IMG/VR virus record: IMGVR_UViG_3300045988_087221
DNA: 64,000 bases
Origin: a virus
Direction: 5' to 3' (one strand)
Positions 7,083 to 42,601 of the stretch are shown piece after piece. The position numbers and the translations under genes are program-made. The notes under the pieces were generated by a model. The model saw only the letters and a program-made list of their open reading frames with translations. It was not told the DNA's origin and made no database searches. Every line of letters begins with the position of its first letter. The first letter of the stretch is position 1.

Positions 7083-8562
7083 TTTTATAACACAATATAA
7101 GGATGTAGCTAAATATAAAGATTTAACAGCAAGTTCTCCTAGCCTAGAAGGTTCTTAGGAAAATGATTATGTTAAATTAATATTTACAAAAGATGGACAT
7201 ATCATAACCCATGGAACTGACTATATTCCTTGGGGAAATGGAACTATTCCTATCGATAAGTTGCCTATAACGGATGGTAACAATCCAGATAATACGCATT
7301 TATGGGATTCTGCAACTATTAACTAGAAAATAAACGAGAGTTACGTAATTAATTCTGCAATGCGATTTAAAGGTACTATTGGATTAAATCCCACATATAA
7401 TGGTACCTCAGATACAAATAAATACTTAGTTAATGATGTAAAATCAGGTATACCATCTGCACAGGTGGGTGATACTTATCGAGTTACTAAGTCAGGTAAT
7501 TATGAAGGGTTTCAATGTGAAGCAGGCGACCTGTTAATGTGTATTACTGCTAGTAGTACTAATAAGGCTGCCGAATGGACAGTAGCTTAGACTAATATCA
7601 ATGGTACTATTGATTTTGTAATTAACGGTAAGGTACATAAAATATATTCTAATGATACCTCTGGCTTAACTATGTTTGCCCCAGTAAGTGCAGGTGCTAC
7701 TGGAAATATTTTGGTTTCAGGTGGAACTGGTAGTGCACCTACTTGGGCAAATCCTGCTAATTTAACTGTTGGAACAGCTAATAAAGTATCTAACTCTTTA
7801 TCTAACGGAGCAGGTATTATAGCATTCTCCTATAATGGTTCGAGTGTAAAAAAGATTGCTCTTGCTCCAGCAACTGCTACCACTATAGGGGGTGTTATTG
7901 TAGATGCAGCAGGAGATAAAGCTACTATATCAGTTGACACAAATGGTAAAATATCTTTAACTGCAGCTAATGTTAGAAATGCGTTAGGATATGACCCAGT
8001 AGGAGTAAATAATTGGCGTCCAATATATGTAGACGGAGATGAATTTCAAGGAGGTACTACAGATACAGGAAATCTTAGTATTAAACATGGCTTAGGTATT
8101 ACTATAACTAAAGACACTACTACTCATAACATTACCTTTAGTGCTAATACTAGTTACACAACTAAAGATAAGAATTATAAAGTAGAAGCAGATTCTACTA
8201 CAGGAGGTTTGTATGTTAATGTACCATGGGCAAATACTACTTATGGAGTTGTAAGTAATACTTCAAATGGTTTAGCTCCTAAAGTAATTAATACTAATAC
8301 AACATTAATTAATAGTGCTTTCTATTTATTAGCTTCTTCAAATGGAACGGCAACTCCTAGTTGGTATAAATTACCTGCTAATGCATTTACTAATACATGG
8401 AGAGATATTAAGATAGGTAATGTATCTATAGGTAGTAAAGCTTTAAATATAGACGCTTCAGGAGATATATATGTTGCTAAAACTGAGACTGATAATACAG
8501 TCACAATAGATTTTGGAATTTCATGGTATAATTTAGATACAAATGAATATGAACATGTTTAA
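7069..8562 (+). CDS. Tail fibre protein (497 aa)
   Basis: ATG 7069 overlaps the previous gene by 14 nt. Track ORFs 7360 and 7672 are in the same frame, joined by TAGs. The gene ends at TAA 8560-8562. The protein is Thr/Asn/Gly-rich and fibre-like; its C-terminal module NTWRDIKIGNVSIGS recurs in the next gene. Confidence 0.75.
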
Positions 8563-8568
8563 TAAATA

Positions 8569-11500
8569 ATGAAAATAGCATTTAATCCCTCTACGGTGGC
8601 AGCCTTAACATCTCCACCAGATAACAAAGATATTACATTTGACCTCAGAGGGCATAATATATTTGCACGAGGGGTTAAATTTTAGGGCACAGATACAAAT
8701 ACTTGGAGAGATATAAAAATAAATAATGTAAGTATAGGTTCTCATACCTTAGACTTACGTAATGGTAGTAATACTACATTAACTAATACTAATGGTGTAG
8801 TAACTATCAATTCTACTTGGAGACCAGTAGTGGATAGCTTAACTAGTAATTCCGCTACTAGTTCTCTTTCTGCTAATTAGGGTAGAGTTTTAGCAGGATT
8901 AATTAATGGTAAATCCGATTCAGACCATAATCACGATGATAGATACCTTAAGTTAACAGGTGGAACATTAACGGGCAATCTAATTGGAACTTCTGCCATG
9001 TTTAGTGGTAGATTTTATGGGGGTGGAGACGATGAAGGAATTATAATCAAACCCTCATCTAATGGATATGCAGGACTTATTTTAGGAACACATGATGGAG
9101 AGAGAAGTATTTTCTATTTTGTAAAGAACAAACCTTTTTGGAGATATAGTCATGGTTCTGATAATTTAGATATTATACACCCTAAAAAATCTGGAACCAT
9201 TGCCTTAACTTCAGACATTCCATCATCTTTAAAAAATCCGTATGCTTTAACTATTAGTTTAAATGGAACAAGTCAAGGTCCTTATGATGGAAGTGCTGCT
9301 AAGAATATAAATATTACACCTGGTTCTATAGGAGCTGCTACTAGTGATCATAATCATGATGGTAGATATGTCTATAATTATGGCGGAATCCAAATGGATG
9401 GAGCTTCTGTAAATAAGAATGCCTTAGGTATGACTACTAATAGTGGTATTACTGGAGATTGGTGGCATATTTTACAAGCAGCATGGAATGATGAATATCG
9501 TTGGAACTCATAGATAGCCTTTCCTACATAGAATAGAAATGGTATGTATTATCGTAGTGGTTTAGATGATAATACTAAATGGGGAAGTTGGGTTAAATTA
9601 CTTGATACTAATAATTACTCATCTACTCTAGATTCTCGTTATTATACAGAATCAGAAGTAAATAGTCTTTTATCTAAGAAATTAGATAGAGTTAACTTAA
9701 CTACTGGAAGTTGGAATCCTAGAGGTTATAGTTTAGCCGCTGATTATCACTATAATGGAGGAGATTTATCTATTTCAGAAAATAGTGGATAGATACATGT
9801 ATCTATTGATGGTTATTTTTGGTAGAATGAAGGTAAATATAGAGTGTTGGATACTTCTGATGTCGCAGGATTAAAAGGTGATTTAACAGTATATTAGTAT
9901 TTATCAGCTACAGATGCTACTTGGTGGCCTCTAATATGGGGAGGAAGTTCTCATGCTAATACTAATGACTCTACTGGAGCTGTTTATAAATCACATGATA
10001 AATTATCTTGGTAGGCTGGCACTTAGACATTATATGCTACTAACATTCGAACAGAGAATATAAGACACCTATCTATAGGAGGCGGTATTTATTGGAATCC
10101 TAATGTAGAGTCAGCTACAGATGGTAGTGATGCCGCTTCTATCACTTTAGTTAAATCAGGTGTAGCAGGAGGAACTACATTAGTACTTAGTTAGATGAAT
10201 GATGCTAACGATACTATATAGTTTAAAACTAATGCTGCTGCTAGATTATATCATAATAGTTATCCAATATTAACTATTTAGAATACCTATGTAAGTAATG
10301 GCAAAGGTTATATAAACGGTACTGAGATTACTTAGGTAAATAATTCAGATACTATTGATGGATGGCATAAGAATAATATTCAGTGGACAGGATACATAAC
10401 TTCTCCTAATTCTATAGCATCTTACTGGTTTAAGATGTATGATATAACTGTTACTGGGCATCAATATAATGATATAACTATTACGTTTTTAGTTAGTGAA
10501 GGTTATAGTTCACATTTTTCTATTTTCTATCTAAGAATTAGATAGAATGGAACTAATAATTCTGGAAATTATAATTTAGGTATATCTTTGTATGAGTTAG
10601 TTGGAAATTTACGAGATAAAGTAGTAGCTTATTACAATAATAGTACTGGAAATGTATAGTTATGGGGTAATACTGGTGGTATATGGAGTACCATGAACTA
10701 TACAATTCTCAAAAAAACCTTTAGAACAGATACAGACTCGGCATCTTTAGGCACATTAACTGCTTAGTCATTTAGTTCAGTATAGACACCACCATCTACT
10801 GGATACTCTAAAGTAACTATGTCTAGGGTAGGTTCTGTATCTTATTCAGATAGTACAGGCTCAGTTCATTGGAATAATGTGACTAATAAACCAAGCTCCT
10901 TCACTCCTTCTTCTCATACTCACACTTGGACTTCCATAACAGATAAAATAGTAGCTGGTAATGAGTTCAATATAGTTAATGCAGGATTTAAAGAAGACTT
11001 GTGGTTCAATTATTTACCTATAAATGATAGAAGTAAATCGGCAACTATTGATTTCTATCATCTTGGAAATGGGCATAAAGGTTATGCATCCCTTATAGCT
11101 TCAGGATTTATAATAAATGGTGGAACTAGTTAGTAGTTATTAAGAGCTGATGGCGGAGTTGCTACCTTTAATTGGACTGGTTAGTCAGGCTAGCCTACTT
11201 GGTTATGGGGAGGAAATAGTTAGCATTCTTATTATGTATATAATCCTAGCAACTTTAGAGTAGCTTACGCTGCCTCCGCTGGAAACGCAGATACTTTAGA
11301 TGGAGAACATGCATCTAATTTTGTTAGAGCTGGAAACTTTGAATCATCTGATTTAAATAAGTTAGATACTTATTCGTTTATTAAATCTGCTTATTCCACT
11401 AATAAAGATACTTCTCCTAAAGGTAATATTGGATGGTATAATGTTATTTAGGCAGTACATAGAAATGGAGCAAGTGATGGACCAGGTTATATAGGTTAGA

Positions 11501-13128
11501 TAGCATTAGGTATGACTATTAATACGGACGATATGTTCTTTAGAGGTAAGAGAACTGATCCTTGGAAAACAGTTATCCATTCAGGTAATATTGGATCTTA
11601 GTCAGTAGCATATGCTTCTAATGCCGATATGGTAGATGGATATCATGCTACTAGTAATAATAATAAGCCTTGGGGTACTATTCCAGCTATTACTCCTAGT
11701 GGATTTATGGATATAGGAAAACATTTAGAATTTCATTATGATAACACCACCGGGTCGGATTACTCAACAGCTCTTATGTGTTAGGGTAATTACAGCAATA
11801 TTGTTTATCTTCCAACGGCAAGTGGTACTCTTGCGTTAACATCCCAGGTATTAACTTGGAAGTCTTAGATTATTGACATGCGTAATTATAGTGAAAGTTA
11901 TTGGCATCCTGTCACAGTACCTCTACCTAATTTGGGATACAATAAAATTAAAGTCTCAGTGTAGCTAAATAGTGGAGATAAACCTTCTTGGGCTACTCAT
12001 AGTAACGGAATTACTTGCAATATGGAAATATGGGCAACAGCCAGTGGATGGGGAACTACTGATTCTGATACTATATGTTTAAATTATACTTATAAATTTT
12101 GTTCACAAAATCCTTGTGGTTGGATGCAGTTAGGTAATTCATCATTAGGAGTGGTCTTTTTAAGAGGAGGTTCTAGATATACCGTTTATACTGACTTTGA
12201 TGCTACTTTTACCCCTCACAATTAGAAATATACATGGGGTAGTGGCAGTTCTTCATAGGATACAGGAGGACCATATACTAGTTGCCCAGGTCTTAATTTT
12301 AATATGGGTGCAATACGTGCTGATTTAATTGCAACTCTGGTACAAGCCAGAAGGGTATGTGCAGGACATGACCCTGGGATAGACAATTCTATATCTTGTT
12401 CTAACTGGTTTAGAAGTAGTGGAAATACAGGTTGGTATAATACCACATACTAGGGAGGTTGGTATATGTCAGATACCTCTTGGATTAGGGCACATAATAA
12501 TGTAGGAATTTATACTGGTGGTCAAATTTACTCTGGTAGTTCCATTAGAATGGGTAGTATTCGTTTAGAAAGAACTAATGAAATTAATAGTAGTGATAAT
12601 CTATTTATAAATTATGGAAGTTCTACTAACGTTAGTTTATGCAACGGAGGAGGCAATGTAGGTATTGGTACTATATCTCCCACACAAAAATTAGATGTAA
12701 ATGGAAACATTACTACTAAAGGTTTTGGAATACAACCATGTTATCTATCTGAATTAAACTTATTTCCTACCATTAGCCCTGGTGATGGTTATAAATATAA
12801 ATGCTTAGAAATAGGTAGAACAATAGACATATCCTGTATTATTGCTGATAAAGCAGTCTTAATGAGTGAAAGAGGAATTTTGATAAAATTTAATAAAGGT
12901 TATGATGGTTAGATAATATTACTGAAGGATTTGTAGAGTTATGGAATTGGAAATGGCTATTTTTGGGTTATGCCTTCTGGGTGTAATATAATAAAAGCAG
13001 ATGGTAGCAGTATTCTTGTAGGTTAGAATTAGATAAGTGATATATATAATGATGGTCGTTCGCGATTTTTAGTATATTCTTCTGTACATAGCGTGTGGAT
13101 AGAATTTCTTTGTGCTAACATTAATTAA
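8569..13128 (+). CDS. Long tail fibre protein (1519 aa)
   Basis: ATG 8569. Track ORFs 8998, 9544, 10819, 12022 and 12466 all share its frame, and I read every gap between them as open apart from TAG. The first TAA is 13126-13128. Fibre motifs: SDHNHDDRYLKLTGGTLTG, SDHNHDGRY, PSSHTHTW, GWYNTTYQGGWYMSDTSWIRAHNN, NVGIGTISPTQKLDVNGNI. Confidence 0.85.
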
Positions 13129-13149
13129 CTTTTACTCTAACCCAAATTA

Positions 13150-13165
13150 ATATATAATTATATAT
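13150..13165. promoter_or_regulatory. Perfect 16-bp palindrome ATATATAATTATATAT in the intergenic spacer ahead of the TAG-free genes
   Basis: Read directly from the sequence. It sits in the 59-bp AT-rich gap between the fibre stop (13128) and ATG 13188. A regulatory role is only a guess. Confidence 0.25.
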
Positions 13166-13187
13166 GTTTAATAAAAATAAATGATTT

Positions 13188-13640
13188 ATGACTTTAAATG
13201 ATGTTTTGACAAAACAGAATCTTATTACAAAGATTCTTTTAGCCAGTAATGGCAAAGAGCTCCCTAAGGAGTTGAAAGTAAAGATTATGAGAATTAGAAT
13301 GTCTTATAATAAGATTAAGAAACAGTTTGATGAAGATACACAAGAATTTAGTAAGCAAATTGTTTCAGATGAGTTAAGAGATTTAGCTAATAAGACAGAG
13401 CGTACTCCTGAAGAGGAAACTAAGTTTAATGAGCTGAATAATAAAGCTAATGCAGAATATCAAGAATATCTTATGCAGAAGGGCAATGAAGATATTAAAG
13501 ATGCACCTGAAGATACATTTACAGAGGGTGAGTATGGTGATATTCTTGATGTAAATTCTGATGGCGAGTATGAGATTAATGGTCAGAAAGTAAAAGCTGC
13601 TGACCTTATGGAAGCTTTTTATGAATTATTTGTTAAATAA
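13188..13640 (+). CDS. Hypothetical charged (Lys/Glu/Asp-rich) protein (150 aa), TAG-free
   Basis: Intact track ORF running from ATG to TAA. All 7 Gln codons are CAA/CAG. Confidence 0.75.
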   Translation: MTLNDVLTKQNLITKILLASNGKELPKELKVKIMRIRMSYNKIKKQFDEDTQEFSKQIVSDELRDLANKTERTPEEETKFNELNNKANAEYQEYLMQKGNEDIKDAPEDTFTEGEYGDILDVNSDGEYEINGQKVKAADLMEAFYELFVK

Positions 13641-13939
13641 TGGAAATAACAAAACAGAATCAAACATTTAATATTAATGATACAACTTCTGAGGGTTGGA
13701 CTATTACCGGTTCTGCCACTCAGGATGTTGATGGTTATACAACAATTAGTTTCAATATTAATAAAGATGGAGAGTTGAACAATCAAGTAGGGTACTACAA
13801 TTATAGTATTCCTAAAGATGGAATGGCTAATGTTAATATTACATCTAATCCAGAAAGTTTAGATGCTTTTATTGACTATGCTCAGACCGCAACTCAAAAA
13901 ATTAAAGATTATCTCGCTAACCAAACAATTTCTAAGTAA
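13640..13939 (+). CDS. Hypothetical acidic protein (99 aa), TAG-free
   Basis: Intact track ORF whose start overlaps the preceding stop (TAATG). All 7 Gln codons are CAA/CAG. Confidence 0.75.
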   Translation: MEITKQNQTFNINDTTSEGWTITGSATQDVDGYTTISFNINKDGELNNQVGYYNYSIPKDGMANVNITSNPESLDAFIDYAQTATQKIKDYLANQTISK

Positions 13940-13940
13940 T

Positions 13941-14021
13941 ATGGGAAGAAAGAAACCTAATTCACCAAGAGCAGGACTCTCAACAGGTGGCAAGTGTGGT
14001 GGAGGAAAGAAGACTAAGTAA
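13941..14021 (+). CDS. Possible 26-aa basic peptide MGRKKPNSPRAGLSTGGKCGGGKKTK
   Basis: ATG lies 1 nt after the previous TAA, and the ORF ends at TAA 14019-14021. It is too short to support beyond its position. Confidence 0.25.
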   Translation: MGRKKPNSPRAGLSTGGKCGGGKKTK

Positions 14022-14396
14022 GTATCTGCATAAGGTATTACTTATAATTCTTAAGTATACTCCTATAACAATAGCTATTATAGATATATTACATACAATT
14101 TTATCTTATTTAGATATTCCTGCTGAATTACTGAGTTTTTCGGAGGAATATCTATTTTAAGTTTAATCTTTTTATATTCTGCATCTTATGCTTTTCAATA
14201 TTGTGAATTACATAGGATTCCTTTACATTATGTTGTATGCAGTAATTTAATAGGTTTATATGATACTTATGTAGGTATTCCTTGTTCAGATAAACAATTA
14301 CTTTGTTTATACCTAATTATTACAGGAATATTTATTATAATATATACTAAGTATGTTATAGCTAATAAAAAGACTATTAAAACAAATAATAGATGA
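14020..14396 (+). pseudogene. Small multi-pass membrane protein coding signal, split over two frames and lacking an ATG (disrupted or recoded gene)
   Basis: The first frame reads KYLHKVLLIILKYTPITIAIIDILHTILSYLDIPAELLSF and stops at TAA 14158-14160. The -1 frame continues from the T5 run (14136-14140) as FFGGISILSLIFLYSASYAFQYCELHRIPLHYVVCSNLIGLYDTYVGIPCSDKQLLCLYLIITGIFIIIYTKYV and ends at TGA 14394-14396. Neither frame contains an in-frame ATG. Confidence 0.35.
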
Positions 14397-14655
14397 TATT
14401 GATACGGGTAATTCTAATGTATCATATGAAGAGTAGTGTAAAATTCTTCACTTTATCTAGAATATAACAGATAAGGATTAGAGAATGAGCAAAATACAAG
14501 CATGTGATTATTTAGGTGTTAGTCGTGCTACTTTTGACAATTATGTTAAGAACGGATGGATTCCAAAAGGATATAAATAGGATGGGTTTAAGGAATTGTC
14601 TTGGATGAAATCTGATCTTGACTTTTATTTAGACACTTATTCAAATAATAAGTAA
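14353..14655 (+). CDS. Helix-turn-helix DNA-binding protein (excisionase/MerR-like HTH)
   Basis: The frame is open from ATG 14353 (an alternative start is ATG 14485) to TAA 14653-14655. The sequence MSKIQACDYLGVSRATFDNYVKNGWIPKGYKQDGFKELSWMKSDLDFYL fits the HTH_17/excisionase pattern. One TAG lies inside the HTH part, and three more lie in the N-terminal extension. Confidence 0.65.
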
Positions 14656-14668
14656 TGTTCTGATGTTT

Positions 14669-14736
14669 GAGGAGACGTAGTTAGAGGTTATTATCAATTG
14701 ATAATGCCATTAACTATGTTTCCTCTTTTTATTTTT
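14669..14736 (+). terminator. Intrinsic terminator
   Basis: A 15-bp stem pairs GAGGAGACGTAGTTA (14669-14683) with TAACTATGTTTCCTC (14711-14725), including two G-U pairs. An inner palindrome TTATCAATTGATAA lies within the loop, and the stem is followed by TTTTTATTTTT. Confidence 0.8.
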
Positions 14737-14827
14737 AGTAATGTCCGAAATTTTAAAATTTGAAGTATATAGTTGTTTAGTTCTAGAACATAAACAGATA
14801 ATTATTAAATCTTTAAATTTTTAAGCA

Positions 14828-15793
14828 ATGAGTGAAACAAAAACTTTTGTTGTTCCTGATAACTTAACAGGAAACAACGATAATCTTGCTACTATGGCAA
14901 TGATGAATGGAGGTTTTGGAGGAGGTATGTGGAATAATCCTTTTATGTATCTCGTATGGATGTACATCATGCGTTGGATGAATAATGGTTATGGAGACCA
15001 AGGCGGAGACCCTGCAGTACAAAGACAGCTTCAAACTCTCTAGGATTAGATGCAAGATAATCACAATTCAGATTTAGTTATGTAGGCGATTAAAGGTAAT
15101 AGTTAGGCACTGCAAGATTTATCTACTAGACTTAGTTGTGATGCTAATGCTATTTAGAGTGCAATTCAGAGTGTACAATCTAGTATAGCTAATGTAGGTA
15201 GTTAGGTAGGATTCTCTTCTGAAAGAATAATTAATGCAGTAAATAGTGGAGATAGTGGTATTATCCAGGCTCTTAATAACTGTTGCTGCTCTACTTAGAA
15301 AGAAATTATTAAAATGGGTTACGAGAACCAGATTAATAACTAGAATCAGACTTATTAGTTAACTAGTCAGTTAAATGGTGTAAATAATGTAATTCAGAAC
15401 GGATTTCGAGATACTAATTATGCTACTCAGCAATAGACTTGCTCTTTATAGAATACAATTAAAGACACAACTACTATTAATACTAACGCTATTTTAGCTA
15501 AGTTAGATGCTCTTAATACTACAGCTTTATAGGATAAGATTCAGTCTTTACGTGAAAAGAATAGTGAGCAGGCTACAGCTATTAATAATTCTCAGCAAAG
15601 CGCATTATTTGCTCAGATGTTAAATGCTGCAACAACTCCTATTAATGCAGCAGTTAATAATCTGACTCAAGAGATAGCTAGTATTCAGTGTAAACTTCCA
15701 AATACAGTAACTTTACCATATTCTTGTGCTACTGCAGTTCCTACTTCTTTAGCATATAATTTATATGGAGCTAATACAGGCTTTTGGGCATAA
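14828..15793 (+). CDS. Gln/Asn-rich coiled-coil protein with an aromatic/Met-rich N-terminal segment (321 aa)
   Basis: Track ORF 14828 continues through 12 in-frame TAG to TAA 15791-15793. The TAGs sit in Q-rich contexts such as LQTLQDQMQD, INNQNQTYQL and ATQQQT. Confidence 0.8.
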
Positions 15794-15794
15794 G

Positions 15795-15802
15795 AAAGGA
15801 GG
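15795..15802 (+). promoter_or_regulatory. Shine-Dalgarno-like AAAGGAGG 5 nt upstream of ATG 15808
   Basis: Read directly from the sequence. The other gene starts I inspected lack such a motif. Confidence 0.35.
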
Positions 15803-15807
15803 TATCT

Positions 15808-16131
15808 ATGATATTACTTAATCCTTATGTTTACGCAAATAGAAATGGTATTCCTAGATTAGAAGCTAATTCAGTAAATGTTGGAACCACTAATGTAACA
15901 TTTACCTTTACTCCACATAGTTTCTTAAATAAAGCTTATTCAGGATTAATTTTATTTAAATTACCTGGATTTACAGCTCCTACTACAGCAGTTCCTATTG
16001 TATTTAATACAAATGGAAAGGATTAGGATTTAACTACATTAGGTGGAGCAGCTGTTACCTCTGCAACTTTAAATTAGGCTGGTATATATTTAGCTTATTA
16101 CGAAAATAATACATTACAATTATTATCTTAA
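15808..16131 (+). CDS. Hypothetical virion-module protein (107 aa)
   Basis: ATG 15808 follows the SD-like motif and lies in the frame of track ORF 15784. The ORF reads through 2 TAG to TAA 16129-16131. Confidence 0.7.
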
Positions 16132-17708: not shown

Positions 17709-18116
17709 ATGGGAAAATATTTTAGCATTGCAGAATTAACTAAGAGTGAAACTGCAAATAAAAGAAAAATTGACAATAAACCTACTAAAGAAGTAGAGAA
17801 ATGTCTTAATTAGTTAATAGATAATATTTTAGATCCACTGAGAGAAGCTTATGGATAGCCAATTATTGTGTCGAGTGGATATAGATGCCCTGAATTAAAT
17901 AAAGCAGTTGGAGGTGCTAGAACTAGCTAGCATACACTTGGCTAGGCTGCAGATATTCATACTAAATCTAATTCTAAGGAAAGTAATAAACAATTATTTG
18001 AACTTATTAAATAGTTAAAGCTTCCTTTCGATTAGTTAATTAATGAGTATAATTATTCTTGGGTACATGTCAGCTATTCTAATAGAAATAGAAGACAAAT
18101 TCTTAATATTAAATAA
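17709..18116 (+). CDS. Peptidase M15 (VanY / L-alanyl-D-glutamate peptidase-like) cell-wall hydrolase, probable endolysin (135 aa)
   Basis: The sequence SSGYRCPELNKAVGGARTSQHTLGQAADI matches the M15 SxHxxGxAxD zinc-binding pattern. The ORF has 7 in-frame TAG, including the Q of S-Q-H (17928-17930), and ends at TAA 18114-18116. Confidence 0.8.
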
Positions 18117-21126: not shown

Positions 21127-22548
21127 ATGTTAGTAGCAAATTTTGTAACAAACCATGCAACCATGGGAGATACAAGAACTTACGAAGATTTTAGTAAGTT
21201 TTTAGGTGAAAGACCTCACCGACTTGGAGTAGTATCAAGACTCTATCCAGAATTGACAGCTACATTCTTGACAGAGGCACTGCGAAATGTTTATTATGGT
21301 GATTCTAAACCAAGTAAGTATCAGAGTATTGATTCTACTTACTTTGAATGGGAGGTAGAAACTAATTATATTAAGCGTGTCCCATTTGCAGCTGAACCAG
21401 TTGGTGATGGAGCAAACGGTTCTGAGATTGAAATGATTTTCCCAGAGAATTATTATCGTTTGCATGAAATCTTCAAGATTGAGAGTACTGGTCAATAGTG
21501 TTTTGTTGTTTCTGACAGTGTTAGAAAGGCAGATAATATGTGGTCAGTAATGGTTCGCTTGCTTGATGATGATTATTCTTCTGTACTGGATACTGATGGT
21601 ACACATATTGGTGATTATACCTATTTTATCGGTAACGCTAAACCAGAATTGCATGAGACTGGTTGGGTTAAGTATCAGAGTAATGTAGAAAAGATGCGTA
21701 ATTATATGAGTACTATTCGTGTATAGGATACATATAGTGCTAAGTATGCATTAATGGAGGATACATTTATCAAGATTGGTAAAGGAGAGAACCAGGGATG
21801 TCTTACTGAAAAGATTTATAAGTTGGATCCTATGAAGAAGAATCTTATTGAGAACTTCTTGTATGCAAGAGAGAATATGATTTTGCTTGCTAAGGGTACT
21901 GTAGGTGTTGATGGTAAGACTACATTGGCTGATAAAGCTACAGGACAACCTATCTTTATCGGTGATGGTGCAATTCCTCAAATTGAGCGCTTTGCTAGTA
22001 AGTATTCTGCAAATAGAATTACAATTGGCACATTCCATACAATAATTTCTGATATGGTATCAAAAGCAGATAAGCCAACAGGTAATCATTTCTGCTTTAT
22101 GTGTAATGAAAAAGCTTGGGCTATCGTACAGAGAGTACTTGGTGAGTATCTTTCTACTAGAAAGACAGACGGAGCTTATCTTTGGTCTAAGCAAGGTGAA
22201 GGAAAGTATATTAAAGTAGGTGCTACATTCGATGCATATGAGTGGGGTGGTAACACTATTAGCTTCAAGGTTGATAGAACATTGTCTAGAGAATATCAAG
22301 ACCCATACTTCTTGTGTATTGATTTGACAACAGGTAAGACATCTACACAACCTCCTATTCAAATGTTCTCATTGAAGGGTAAAGATTATATCTTCAATGA
22401 AGTCCTTGGTGTAGGTGGTCGCTCAGGAGGTGAAAGCGGTGTTGTAAGTTCACCAGTAGCAGGTGGTCTTATGACAATCTGGGGATACGCAGGTATTGCT
22501 GTATTTAACCCTTATAAATCATTTATTCTTAAAGCTAAGGAATATTGA
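21127..22548 (+). CDS. Probable major capsid protein (473 aa)
   Basis: Track ORFs 21127, 21538 and 21754 share one frame and are joined by only two TAG (21496-21498 and 21724-21726). The gene ends at TGA 22546-22548. It has 11 CAA/CAG against 2 TAG, the size and position match a crAss-like capsid gene, and a strong stem-loop follows. Confidence 0.7.
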
Positions 22549-22644: not shown

Positions 22645-23529
22645 ATGGCAAAGAAAGTTAATGATGTAAAGGACGGTGACTTAAAGAGTAATGTTGTTGT
22701 TCTTAGAAGTGTTTATGGTAAAGTTGGATAGAAATATTTTATTCAGCCACAAAGAGATCCTAAAACTGGACGTTTTCCAGAGTGTGTAAAATAGGTAAAT
22801 TCATACGGAGATATTCTTCTCACAGAAGATGAAAGAAATAGAGAAGCACAAGGTTTAGCACACTTTATTCCGGTAACTGAAGTGTTTACTATTACTGATG
22901 GTAAGTCATTTAATTTAGATGATATTTATCAAGCTGCTGAATGGGAAGCAATTAAAAACTGTGACCTTATTGCTGTAGATAGATATGCTAAGAATGATAA
23001 GGGTGATTATTTAATTGATGGTACTGTAGATAAGCATTCTACAAGACCTCGTTATGGTGCTGCTGAGTTATATGTTGATAAACCTGGTCTTGATGCATCT
23101 CGTAGAGTTACTAGAAAGAAACTTATTCATCAAGCTATTAACTTCATTCTTGATGATGAAAGAGGCTATGATGGTAGATTGCTTGTAGCTAGAGTATTGG
23201 GTAGAAATATGAAAAATCAACCTAACGCAGATGTTGAGGATTATTTAATTTCTATTGCAGAAAAGACTCCAGAGAAGATTATTAATTGCTACACTGGAGG
23301 AGATATGCAATTCCGTATGTTATTTATTGAAGCTCGTGAACATGGAGTAATTAGAAAGAAACAAGGTCTCTATGTTTTCGGTGACGATGGAAAATGTATC
23401 TTAGGAGCAACAGATGATGCTGCTATTGAATGGATGCAAAGTCCTAAGAATAGTAAAGTCATGGCTATGATTCGTAAAGATACTTATCCTGAAATGTTCG
23501 TAGATGAAGAACTCTCAGATAAGAAATAA
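22645..23529 (+). CDS. Virion structural protein (294 aa), TAG-poor
   Basis: ATG 22645 is in the frame of track ORF 22882. The ORF has 2 TAG and ends at TAA. Confidence 0.8.
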
Positions 23530-24753: not shown

Positions 24754-25764
24754 ATGGCAGGTTTAAATTTTTAGACACAAACTATTATTAATAGTAATCT
24801 GGATCCAGATTCAGGTAAAGGAGTAGTTCTCTTTGAAGGTAAGAAAGAGAAAGTTGATGGAGTTGAGAAAGATGTTCTCAAGATTAAGAGAGATTTTCTC
24901 TTTGTAAAAGATAATATTGATTGTATTCGTAGACGTAAAGGTTATGCAGCAGAGTTGTGTGAAGCAACAATTGACTTTACTAAGTTAACTTCTGTTGTAC
25001 CTACAGACCATGCAGTTAACTATTTGAGACTTGATATTTATTTAGGAGTAGATGGTGCTGAACCTTATATCTATTCGACTCCTTGGTATCATAAGGGCAA
25101 ACCTTTCTGGGTAGAATTTCTTGCTAAGAAGGGAGATAAAGCTAAGGATTTGGCGGATAGACTTGAGAAGACAATTAAGTCTAATCATATGTTTCAAGTA
25201 GATAAAGACCTTATCAAGGTAGCTAATGATGGTGCAGGTAAGATTACTCTTACTGGTGCTACAGAGTATTAGAGATTTAGAAAGGTAACTATCAACATCT
25301 TTGAGGAAACAGCTGATTATGATGATGAAGTAGCAACAATGAATCCTAATAAGGTACAAGCTACTGATCCTATCGCATTAGTTAAGTTTGGTAAGAATGC
25401 ATTTGGTACTTATTCTCAGATTATTAAAGATTTGAGACTTCCTACTGCTGCAAATTATCAATGGTCTGCCATTCGTCAGGTAGAAACTCCTATTGTAGGC
25501 GCTACATACAATCAGTATATCATTGAATATCATGCTCCTGCTAACAGTCATCCATTGAGTGTTGTTGGTGGACGTCTTAATTCTCATACAACTCATGTAT
25601 TCTGGGTTAAGAATGATACAGAGTTAGTAACTGCGTGGGAAACTGCTTTGAAGACAGTTGGTACTATTGTAGATTCTGATACCGGAGCCGCTGTAGAAGA
25701 AGTAGCAACAGAGGGACGCACAGAATCAGAATTAACTAAAGGAGTAAAAACTGTTAAGGGTTAA
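24754..25764 (+). CDS. Virion structural protein (336 aa), TAG-poor
   Basis: ATG 24754. Track ORFs 24955 and 25339 are in the same frame. The ORF has 2 TAG and ends at TAA 25762-25764. Confidence 0.8.
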
Positions 25765-42313: not shown

Positions 42314-42601
42314 ATGCAATTTATTAAGAAGTTTCAAGAAGGTGGAGCTGCTCCAGCACCAGAGGCTGCTGCTCCACAGTAGGGTGGTGAAGACCCAACA
42401 GCTATGTTGATGCAAGGTGCTCAGCAAGCAGTACAAAATCAAGATTGTCAAATCGCTATTCAGGTATGTCAAATGGTACTCGAAATGCTCGGCGGAGGTG
42501 GTGCCCCAGCAGAAGCAGGTGGACCTGAAGCAGGTGGTGCTCCACAATCAGAACCTGTTTATCGTAGAGGTGGACGTCTTGTAAGAAGAATTTAGAAGTA
42601 A
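42314..42601 (+). CDS. Small Gly/Ala/Pro/Gln-rich protein (95 aa), locally GC-rich
   Basis: ATG 42314 is in the frame of track ORF 42404. The ORF has 2 TAG and ends at TAA 42599-42601. Translation: MQFIKKFQEGGAAPAPEAAAPQQGGEDP...YRRGGRLVRRIQK. Confidence 0.7.

What the first reader, a model, noticed from the sequence alone, without database searches (positions are those of the whole stretch)
13129..14736. TAG-free accessory island between the tail-fibre genes and the next operon
Seen: the two genes 13188-13640 and 13640-13939 contain 14 Gln codons, all CAA/CAG. In flanking genes TAG is a large share of Gln codons: the fibre gene is TAG-dominated, and gene 14828 has 12 TAG against 22 CAA/CAG. 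The island opens with an AT-rich spacer carrying a perfect 16-bp palindrome (13150-13165). It continues with a tiny basic ORF, a split membrane ORF and an HTH protein, and closes with the strongest terminator in the window (14669-14736). Inference: these genes could be translated under the standard code, either before the code switch or in a non-suppressing cell. They look like a moron-type regulatory, exclusion or anti-defence cassette rather than virion parts. Both products are charged or acidic and have no motif I recognise.
Basis: partly seen in the sequence, partly recalled or inferred. Interest (0 to 1): 0.65.

Follow-up and report, generated by a model that had tools for sequence, protein, structure and literature searches.

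The report
TAG-free gene pair behind tail fibre
In a gut phage that reads the TAG stop codon as glutamine, two small genes after the tail-fibre gene avoid TAG (the first clearly through selection), but they are a conserved, fibre-linked pair of unknown function, not a mobile accessory island.

Summary
The core observation holds. The window is a TAG→Gln recoded late-gene block. Genes A (13188-13640) and B (13640-13939) have 0 TAG among 14 Gln codons, against a 58% TAG share in the other genes.

One genome cannot exclude chance, because per-gene TAG share ranges from 0.14 to 0.75. About 90 related loci settle it for A. Its Gln codons switched between CAA and CAG 25 times but to or from TAG only once. 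Flanking genes show 77 versus 136 (p=1e-9) and the major capsid gene 11 versus 10 (p=0.001). B is depleted only weakly. The downstream membrane gene is also TAG-poor, and the HTH gene is TAG-dense.

The "moron/accessory island" reading fails. A and B sit directly after tail-fibre genes in five recoded lineages, and between fibre genes in a standard-code lineage. A homologues also follow a large tail gene in Parabacteroides phages. One clade carries TAG at a conserved Gln of A.

Segment 13116-13659 is a sharply bounded recombination cassette, 93-95% identical between phages whose capsid proteins are 48% identical. It abuts 14 different fibre 3′ ends. No known family or fold matches A or B.

Best guess: fibre-assembly helpers kept independent of amber suppression. 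Pre-switch expression is not excluded.

The parts
13116..13129 (+). TAAC-N5-TTAAC motif overlapping the fibre gene's stop codon. It is the left border of the recombined A cassette.
   Evidence: Only occurrence in the window. The motif is kept at nucleotide level in all lineages although the last fibre codons differ. High-identity matches to lineage II start exactly here.
13129..13187 (+). AT-rich 59-nt spacer before gene A. It contains the palindrome 13150-13165 and a conserved block AAAAAT(A/T)AATGATTT just before the ATG.
   Evidence: The palindrome is exact but at chance level and not conserved. There is no RNA structure. One sigma-70-like match (13131-13158, 10/12) lies in a region where such matches are not enriched. 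No terminator is present here.
13188..13640 (+). Gene A: 150 aa, acidic (pI 4.7), with a helical hairpin plus small N- and C-terminal alpha/beta elements. It is TAG-free and belongs to an uncharacterised family with 147 representatives at 50% identity.
   Evidence: AF2 best-model pLDDT is 92.8. No Pfam, PHROG, NCBIfam, PADLOC or PDB match was found. BFVD matches are all uncharacterised phage proteins. Selection against TAG is shown.
13640..13939 (+). Gene B: 99 aa, acidic, predicted as five strands plus a C-terminal helix. Its start overlaps A's stop (ATAATG, start at 13640). It is lineage-specific in sequence and TAG-free here.
   Evidence: B-type ORFs accompany A in all recoded lineages. A 93-aa ORF next to A in the standard-code lineage aligns over its full length (hhalign E = 3.5e-4, probability 37%). 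TAG depletion is only weak.
13941..14021 (+). Tiny basic ORF (26 aa, pI 11.3). It overlaps, in the +1 frame, the open N-terminal extension of the membrane-protein frame.
   Evidence: It is kept as an ORF in lineages I and I′. In lineage IV the equivalent ATG is in frame with the membrane protein.
13987..14397 (+). Membrane protein gene: about 136 aa after repair, four hydrophobic segments by eye, GTG start assumed. It is frameshifted in this window only, by loss of one T in the run 14136-14140. The family is TAG-poor.
   Evidence: T5 here against T6 in all seven closest relatives. The ORF is intact in relatives, with 1 TAG among 59 Gln codons in 36 unique sequences. No family match was found.
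14353..14655 (+). HTH protein gene: 100 aa, with 5 TAG among 7 Gln codons, four of them in the first 43 codons. Its start overlaps the 3′ end of the membrane gene.
   Evidence: The N-terminal part is conserved as protein, with TAG aligned to Gln in relatives. Hits are sub-threshold: HTH_17/excisionase-type (Pfam E = 0.0025, PHROG 668 E = 6.6e-5). The family's TAG share is 147/230.
14669..14736 (+). Intrinsic-terminator-like hairpin (14669-14725) followed by TTTTTATTTTT. It marks the end of the fibre-operon transcription unit.
   Evidence: dG -31.8 kcal/mol, z = -6.7, and 0 of 200 shuffles fold as well. It is the strongest such site on the + strand.

Best explanation
Shown:
- The region is the 3′ end of the late tail-fibre operon of a TAG→Gln recoded gut phage.
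- A and B are an overlapping-start, probably co-translated gene pair that accompanies tail-fibre genes across deeply diverged relatives.
- Purifying selection keeps A almost free of TAG.
- The segment 13116-13659 (spacer, A, and the first 20 nt of B) is a sharply bounded recombination cassette. It is shared at 93-95% nucleotide identity by phages that are otherwise 25-48% identical in protein. It flanks 14 different fibre 3′ ends, four of which occur in both lineages.

Inferred:
- A is a generic helper of fibre assembly and B is its lineage-specific partner.
- A carries no TAG so that its synthesis does not depend on the amber suppressor. The helper would then be made at full yield as soon as the operon's RNA exists, while the 1519-codon fibre with 35 TAG is made only as well as suppression allows.
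- Because A is constant and lies next to the variable fibre end, it also serves as the downstream homology arm when fibre modules are swapped between co-infecting phages.
For: Position:
- A lies directly after a long fibre gene (gap 59-75 nt) in 65 loci of lineages I-IV and in lineage V.
- It lies between 1683-aa and 1231/1082-aa fibre-like ORFs in a standard-code lineage.
- It follows a >1600-aa tail gene, with DUF7841 and the endolysin downstream as in the window, in Parabacteroides phage PD691P4.

Transcription unit:
- There is no terminator between fibre and A. A strong one follows the HTH gene.

Selection against TAG:
- A versus flanks, p = 1.4e-9.
- A versus the capsid gene, p = 0.001.

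Cassette:
- Borders 13116 and 13659 recur in L001, L006 and L016. L017 shares 12352-13681.
- The capsid protein is 48% identical and flanking proteins 25-47% identical between the two lineages.
- 14 fibre 3′ types abut the cassette; four are shared by lineages I and II.

Protein:
- A is a real, conserved protein with a confident model.
Against: - No sequence or fold similarity to any known fibre chaperone or any other characterised protein.
- A does not co-vary with the fibre 3′ end, and neither does B. Any chaperone role would therefore have to be generic.
- A yield argument does not explain why the membrane gene is also TAG-poor.
- It also does not explain why A is more TAG-averse than the capsid gene. 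Both points fit pre-switch expression better.
- Conversely, a clade with TAG at conserved Gln92 of A shows that suppressor-dependent translation of A is viable.
- There are no expression, virion or interaction data.
Confidence: 0.42

Rival explanations
1. Pre-switch (standard-code) module. A, B and the membrane protein would be translated before, or without, amber suppression from a promoter in the spacer. They would act early, for example in exclusion or envelope modification through the membrane protein, or in regulation. The TAG-dense HTH gene on the same RNA would be translatable only after the switch. The genetic code would then act as a timer inside one operon.
For: - Three consecutive genes are TAG-poor: A 8/361, B 10/165, TM 1/59. 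The next gene is the most TAG-rich of the region, at 147/230.
- A is more TAG-averse than the capsid gene.
- A membrane protein is unlikely to need very high yield.
- The spacer holds a TATATA(A/G) element also seen after two terminators. There are 4 in 1133 intergenic bases against about 1 expected.
- Standard-code genes beside lysis cassettes, and TAG-free integrases, are documented in recoded phages (10.1101/2021.08.26.457843).
Against: - A and B are conserved core genes, not variable cargo.
- In the standard-code relatives they sit inside the fibre cluster.
- A clade keeps TAG in both A and B.
- No defence or anti-defence model matches.
- A and B have no signal peptide or membrane segment by eye (not tested with a predictor).
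- The promoter evidence is weak and the sigma-70 scan is not enriched.
Confidence: 0.27
2. Yield-only selection on abundant late proteins. A (and less so B) would be abundant structural, decoration or scaffolding-type proteins. They would avoid TAG for the same reason the capsid gene does, because suppression is inefficient. Timing would have no significance.
For: - Several virion-type genes in the window are TAG-poor: the capsid-like gene 2/13, gene 22645 2/11, gene 24754 2/9 and gene 42314 2/14.
- The capsid family's TAG share is 12.5%, against 44% in the fibre-side flanking genes.
- Rare, shallow TAG alleles in A look like mildly deleterious variants.
Against: - A is significantly more TAG-averse than the capsid gene.
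- The TAG-poor membrane gene does not fit.
- There is no similarity to any virion protein family.
Confidence: 0.17
3. No selection on the code at all. The TAG-free state would be chance in two short genes, or a by-product of A being recently and repeatedly imported by recombination.
For: - Within the window alone, 0/14 is not extreme if a low-share gene class is assumed.
- B's depletion is not significant by events.
- A was clearly exchanged recently between lineages I and II.
Against: - A stays TAG-free in lineages I-V at 60-99% identity, while 25 CAA<->CAG changes accumulated.
- Both known exchange partners are themselves recoded.
- The standard-code lineage's A is only 42-56% identical, so it is not a recent donor.
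Confidence: 0.08

Closest known systems
Standard-code-compatible genes inside stop-codon-recoded phages (Borges et al., 10.1101/2021.08.26.457843): integrases, early genes, and the code-change operon upstream of a lysis cassette
   Same: Genes without in-frame recoded stops sit among heavily recoded late genes. The avoidance is statistically supported across relatives. The location is just upstream of the lysis-side operon.
   Different: Here the genes are at the 3′ end of a late fibre operon with no terminator before them. They have no link to integration or to the translation machinery. They also occur in standard-code relatives. One clade tolerates TAG in them. Expression timing is unknown.
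Tail-fibre assembly chaperones encoded next to or acting on fibre genes (T4 gp57A and gp38, Mu/P2/lambda Tfa); named from my own knowledge
   Same: Small acidic proteins are encoded directly downstream of the receptor-binding fibre gene. A is largely helical and generic, as gp57A is.
   Different: There is no sequence, profile or fold match to any of them. There is no co-variation with the fibre tip. No functional data exist.
Morons and exclusion genes placed beside tail-fibre or RBP genes (lambda lom/bor, lambdoid cor, T5 llp); from my own knowledge
   Same: The position is at the end of the tail-fibre region. Expression independent of the late programme is possible. A small membrane protein lies in the block.
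   Different: Morons are variable cargo with their own promoter and terminator and often atypical composition. A and B are conserved, compositionally typical and soluble. Only the membrane and HTH genes vary between lineages.
Modular exchange of tail-fibre genes by recombination at conserved flanks (mosaicism of phage host-range genes); general knowledge
   Same: A conserved segment with sharp borders flanks many different fibre 3′ ends and is shared between deeply diverged genomes.
   Different: The conserved arm here is a whole protein-coding gene. That gene is also the most TAG-averse in the region. A unique TAAC-N5-TTAAC motif marks the border.

Membership tests
Moron / accessory cargo island | Presence varies between close relatives, or different cargo occupies the same slot | tested here: not met
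   A and a B-type gene are present in all 65 + 2 recoded loci. Only the membrane and HTH genes are missing in lineage II and in some lineage IV and V loci.
Moron / accessory cargo island | Own promoter and terminator, separate from the late operon | tested here: inconclusive
   The terminator after the HTH gene is strong. There is no terminator before A, and only weak promoter-like matches in the spacer.
Moron / accessory cargo island | Atypical base composition | tested here: not met
   A has GC 0.313 and B 0.310, against a gene mean of 0.310. GC3 is within about 1.3 sd.
Code-independent (unrecoded) genes of recoded phages | No in-frame recoded stop, and a stop codon valid in both codes | tested here: met
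   A and B have 0 TAG and both end in TAA.
Code-independent (unrecoded) genes of recoded phages | Avoidance maintained across relatives beyond chance | tested here: met
   Met for A: p = 1.4e-9 against flanks and p = 0.001 against the capsid gene. For B it is only a trend (p = 0.08).
Code-independent (unrecoded) genes of recoded phages | Translated before or without the suppressor | not testable with these tools
   This needs a transcriptome or proteome time course. There is no suppressor tRNA in the window.
Tail-fibre assembly chaperone | Encoded adjacent to the fibre gene | tested here: met
Tail-fibre assembly chaperone | Homology to a known chaperone family (Tfa, gp38, gp57A, intramolecular chaperone) | tested here: not met
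   No Pfam, PHROG or NCBIfam hit and no PDB sequence or fold hit.
Tail-fibre assembly chaperone | Co-variation with the fibre C-terminal domain (for specific chaperones) | tested here: not met
   The same A cassette abuts 14 fibre 3′ types. B follows the lineage, not the fibre end.
Tail-fibre assembly chaperone | Required for fibre folding or attachment | not testable with these tools
   Genetics or biochemistry is needed.
Skp/prefoldin-like 'jellyfish' holdase (a lead from memory, based on the order of secondary-structure elements) | Helical hairpin inserted in a small beta-containing body, detectable by fold or profile comparison | tested here: not met
   The element order resembles it. However, Foldseek against the PDB gave nothing below E = 1.
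Anti-phage defence / anti-defence proteins | Match to a PADLOC model | tested here: not met
   A, B and the membrane protein have no hit. The HTH gene has only a weak match to the MADS HTH component (E = 0.0012).
HTH_17 / excisionase-type DNA-binding proteins (gene 14353-14655) | Profile match above the family threshold | tested here: inconclusive
   Pfam HTH_17 scores 18.5 bits against a cut-off of 27. TIGR01764 scores 16.2 against 28.8. PHROG 668 and 66 give E = 7e-5 to 2e-4.
Intrinsic terminator | Stable hairpin followed directly by a U-run | tested here: met
baeRF_family8 (release-factor-like, PF18851) | Consistent profile match across the A family | tested here: not met
   Only 3 of 67 members match, with best E = 2.6e-4. 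Equally strong hits to unrelated families (Peptidase_M2, CorA, PBC) appear in the same scan. The window protein has no hit. There is no eRF1-like fold hit.

The most novel reading that the evidence does not exclude
The genetic code is used as a timer inside a single operon. The RNA that ends at the 14669-14736 terminator would give A, B and the membrane protein at any time, including before the amber suppressor is active. The overlapping TAG-dense HTH gene, and the 35-TAG fibre gene upstream, could be read only after the switch. A would then be an early-acting factor of a new protein family, tied to host recognition or exclusion.
Probability: 0.2. Interest if true: 0.7.

Novelty: new member of a known kind. 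Interest (0 to 1): 0.4.

Why it matters
Recoded phages are thought to use the code switch to separate early from late translation. So far the evidence comes from whole modules, such as replication versus structural genes, or integrases.

Here a single gene inside a late operon is shown, by counting codon changes across about 55 unique sequences, to be under stronger selection against TAG than the capsid gene. It sits next to one of the most TAG-dense genes of the region. This gives a concrete, small test case for asking whether TAG avoidance reports timing or yield.

The A cassette also marks a defined recombination joint for tail-fibre exchange between deeply diverged gut phages. That is relevant to host-range evolution and to engineering such phages.

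The A family (147 clusters at 50% identity) has no annotation in any library searched.

Tried and rejected
- Family and fold searches. Pfam, PHROGs, NCBIfam and PADLOC gave nothing usable for A, B and the membrane protein. PDB profile searches gave nothing. Foldseek against the PDB gave nothing for A or B. Foldseek against BFVD returned only uncharacterised phage proteins.
- Release-factor lead. Weak PF18851 hits in 3 of 67 family members were judged to be compositional noise.
- Skp/prefoldin-like holdase. Not supported.
- DGR targeting of the fibre. No TR/VR-type repeat is present in the window.
- RNA elements. No Rfam match and no tRNA.
- Palindrome as a functional site. At chance level, not conserved, and not a stable hairpin.
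- Sigma-70 promoter scan. Fewer matches than in shuffles. The Bacteroidota -7 motif TAnnTTTG is absent from the spacer.
- Foreign origin by composition. Not seen.
- B as a fibre-tip-specific chaperone. B follows the lineage, not the fibre end.
- Truncated family members as a sign of hidden TAGs. The one checked is cut by a contig end.
- Diverse-alignment scan of IMG/VR. It failed for lack of a conserved stretch. Two single-protein scans found nothing.
- Homology of the PD691P4 100-aa neighbour to B. Not supported.
Full report
**What the window is**

The 64-kb window has 30.8% GC. ORFs of at least 100 aa cover 20 kb under the standard code and 67 kb when TAG is read through; reading through TGA gives no such gain.

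With TAG as a sense codon, all genes lie on the + strand. They form a late block containing:
- very long fibre-like and cargo-like ORFs;
- a capsid-like gene at 21127-22548 (PHROG 11589, E = 9e-8);
- an M15-type endolysin-like gene at 17709-18116, recognised by motif and not tested with a tool.

TAG aligns with Gln in homologues.

Related contigs are 120-190 kb and come from human gut samples. Both the size and the mix of TAG-recoded and standard-code relatives fit the 'zeta crAss-like' group described in PMC12386605. I did not test that assignment.

**Checking the observation**

| Gene | TAG | CAA | CAG |
|---|---|---|---|
| A (13188-13640, 150 aa) | 0 | 3 | 4 |
| B (13640-13939, 99 aa) | 0 | 4 | 3 |
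| Fibre gene (8569-13128) | 35 | 9 | 3 |
| Gene 14828 | 12 | 9 | 13 |

Pooled over the other genes, TAG makes up 57.5% of Gln codons, which gives P(0/14) = 6e-6. Genes differ widely, however, with shares from 0.14 to 0.75. The capsid-like gene (2/13), gene 22645 (2/11), gene 24754 (2/9) and gene 42314 (2/14) are all low. At such a share, 0/14 has a probability near 0.1 (my arithmetic). One genome therefore cannot settle the question.

The other features:
- The palindrome 13150-13165 is exact but unremarkable. The window has five perfect 16-bp palindromes against 2.7 expected. It is imperfect in most close relatives and absent in distant ones. It is not a stable RNA hairpin.
- The terminator is real. 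The hairpin 14669-14725 plus a T-run has dG -31.8 kcal/mol and z = -6.7. It is the strongest such site on the + strand.
- The 'split membrane ORF' is caused by a single missing T in the run 14136-14140. All seven closest relatives have T6 and an intact 135-aa ORF.
- The HTH gene is a conserved 100-aa ORF (14353-14655) with 5 TAG. The interval as a whole is therefore not TAG-free.

**Relatives**

Gene A has 1523 homologues in the protein collection. It has 147 representative clusters at 50% identity and 65 IMG/VR loci.

In all of these loci the order is the same:
1. a long, highly variable fibre gene;
2. a 59-75-nt AT-rich spacer;
3. A;
4. a B-type gene, overlapping or a few nt away.

Often a membrane protein, the HTH gene and the homologue of gene 14828 follow.

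I distinguish the lineages by the identity of flanking proteins to the window.

| Lineage | Flank identity to window | A identity to window |
|---|---|---|
| I and I′ | more than 90% | 95-99% |
| II | 25-47% (capsid 48%) | 95-96% |
| III | 72-84% | about 75% |
| IV | 38-84% | 60-74% |

Further contexts:
- A fifth recoded lineage (L094, L096) has fibre, then A, then an 87-aa B-type gene, then the homologue of gene 18116.
- A lineage of about 180 kb without any in-frame TAG (L068-L091) has a 1683-aa fibre-like ORF, a 93-aa ORF, the A homologue, and then 1231-aa and 1082-aa fibre-like ORFs. The 93-aa ORF aligns with the B family over its full length (hhalign E = 3.5e-4, probability 37%). This is suggestive only.
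- Four isolated Parabacteroides phages (standard code, 40-47 kb) carry a 27-29% identical A homologue. In PD691P4, the one examined, it lies after a tail gene of more than 1600 aa and is followed by a DUF7841/PHROG 38431 gene and the endolysin, as in the window.

A and B are therefore a conserved fibre-linked pair, not variable cargo. The membrane and HTH genes are the variable part. They are absent in lineage II and in some lineage IV and V loci.

**Is TAG avoided by selection?**

I aligned the unique nucleotide sequences of each gene by codon, built neighbour-joining trees, and counted changes at Gln codons by parsimony. The membrane-gene counts come and the capsid-gene counts.

| Gene set | Unique seqs | TAG / all Gln codons | CAA<->CAG events | Synonymous events with TAG |
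|---|---|---|---|---|
| A | 55 | 8 / 361 | 25 | 1 |
| B | 42 | 10 / 165 | 6 | 3 |
| Membrane gene | 36 | 1 / 59 | not counted | not counted |
| HTH gene | 35 | 147 / 230 | 4 | 10 |
| Seven flanking genes pooled | - | 1218 / 2763 (44%) | 77 | 136 |
| Capsid gene | 43 | 57 / 455 (12.5%) | 11 | 10 |

The comparisons:
- A also has one non-Gln<->TAG change.
- A against the flanks gives Fisher p = 1.4e-9.
- A against the capsid gene gives p = 0.001 by events.
- B against the flanks gives p = 0.08.
- A's Gln codons are 43% CAG, although CAG→TAG is a single transition that neighbouring genes take freely.

Selection against TAG in A is therefore real and unusually strong. For B, the TAG-free state in this window is at most weakly constrained. 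B carries TAG in L024, in L040/L047/L048, in the L054 clade, in L064 and in lineage V.

Avoidance in A is not absolute. The clade L054-L062 plus L066 has TAG at the conserved Gln of EYQEY, and L062 has a second TAG. A that needs suppression is thus viable.

**A recombination cassette**

Against lineage II loci, the only nucleotide similarity in 11000-16000 is 13116-13659, at 93-95% identity. The same two borders recur in L001, L006 and L016. L017 additionally shares the fibre 3′ end (12352-13681, 94%).

- The left border is the motif TAACATTAATTAAC (13116-13129), which overlaps the fibre stop codon. It is unique in the window. It is kept at nucleotide level across lineages even though the last fibre residues differ.
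- The right border lies 20 nt into B.
- Upstream of near-identical A cassettes there are 14 different fibre 3′-end types. Four of them occur in both lineage I and lineage II.

Fibre modules are thus exchanged between deeply diverged phages, with A as the constant downstream flank.

Composition of A and B is typical of the genome.

**What the proteins look like**

- A is acidic (pI 4.7). Its best model has pLDDT 92.8, while the other four models score 65-82. The model shows an N-terminal helix and hairpin, a long helical hairpin (residues 27-99), and then a helix, beta-hairpin and helix.
- B is acidic. It is modelled with low confidence (pLDDT 62.8) as five strands and a C-terminal helix.
- Neither protein matches any family or solved structure.
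- A's fold recurs only in uncharacterised phage proteins. One comes from a crAss-like phage, cr106_1 (TM 0.78).

**Transcription units**

Terminator-like hairpins follow the HTH gene, gene 17201, the capsid gene, gene 26912 and gene 42314. None lies between the fibre gene and A. A to HTH therefore form the tail end of the fibre operon, unless the spacer holds a promoter. The evidence for such a promoter is weak.

**Interpretation**

Firmly shown:
- a conserved fibre-linked A/B pair;
- strong selection against TAG in A;
- a TAG-poor membrane gene followed by a TAG-dense HTH gene;
- a bounded recombination cassette.

The function is inferred. I favour generic fibre-assembly helpers whose synthesis is kept independent of amber suppression (0.42).

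A, B and the membrane protein would form a pre-switch unit and HTH a post-switch gene on the same RNA (0.27). Two observations favour this rival: the membrane gene is also TAG-poor, and A exceeds the capsid gene in TAG avoidance. Three observations count against it: the pair is conserved, it sits inside fibre clusters of standard-code relatives, and one clade carries TAG in both A and B.

Yield-only selection on abundant proteins (0.17) and chance or hitch-hiking (0.08) remain possible.

Code-compatible genes within recoded phages are already described, including integrases and a code-change operon beside a lysis cassette (10.1101/2021.08.26.457843). This is therefore a new member of a known kind, with an uncharacterised protein family attached.

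Noticed in passing
window 14136-14140: The membrane-protein gene is frameshifted by loss of one T in a homopolymer (T5 here, T6 in all seven closest relatives). This is either a sequencing or assembly error or a strain-specific knock-out.
   Followed up: yes
window 13941-14021 and 13942-13986: The tiny basic ORF's ATG is one base out of frame with the membrane-protein frame. That frame is open from 13942 and is homologous there to the N-terminus of lineage IV proteins, whose ATG is in frame (ATGGAAGAA there, ATGGGAAGA here). In lineages I and I′ the membrane protein therefore needs a non-ATG start (GTG 13987) or a +1 shift.
   Followed up: partly
window 13116-13129: TAAC-N5-TTAAC overlaps the fibre stop codon. 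It is unique in the window and is conserved at DNA level across lineages despite different fibre C-termini. It coincides with the recombination border. It could be a protein-binding or recombination signal.
   Followed up: partly
window 13181-13204: An out-of-frame ATG 7 nt upstream of A's start opens a 6-codon mini-ORF (MIYDFK) that overlaps A's start. The block AATGATTTATGAC is kept in nearly all recoded lineages.
   Followed up: no
window 14353-14655: The HTH gene is the most TAG-dense gene of the region (5 of 7 Gln codons, four in the first 43 codons). It directly overlaps the TAG-poor membrane gene.
   Followed up: partly
window 14111-14154: A -18.9 kcal/mol hairpin followed by TTTT lies inside the membrane gene and spans the frameshift site.
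   Followed up: no
window 21127-22548, 22645-23529, 24754-25764, 42314-42601: Four other genes have a low TAG share (14-22%). One of them is the capsid-like gene, which suggests a yield-related gradient of TAG use among late genes.
   Followed up: partly
L031 7465-8058 and L054 7467-8060: A 197-aa ORF is inserted between the HTH gene and the homologue of gene 14828. By eye it looks like a GIY-YIG homing endonuclease (not tested).
   Followed up: no
L010 about 7640-9020; L004 7637-8447: The homologue of gene 14828 is interrupted in L010 (extra sequence between two parts, possibly an intron) and split into two ORFs in L004.
   Followed up: no
L094 11419-13262; L167 and L173 3501-5540: The capsid gene is interrupted in some relatives. 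In L094 a 236-aa ORF with a LAGLIDADG-like motif (by eye) precedes the capsid fragment. In L167 and L173, residues 1-374 span about 2040 nt instead of 1120.
   Followed up: no
L096 87-335 and 832-1095: In lineage V a B-type ORF lies on both sides of A, and each carries one TAG.
   Followed up: no
A family members (alignment A3); P0373: Three of 67 family members give weak Pfam hits to baeRF_family8, a release-factor-like family (best E = 2.6e-4). I judged these to be noise, but did not identify which members matched. Separately, P0373 joins an A-like N-terminus to an unrelated C-terminal domain.
   Followed up: partly
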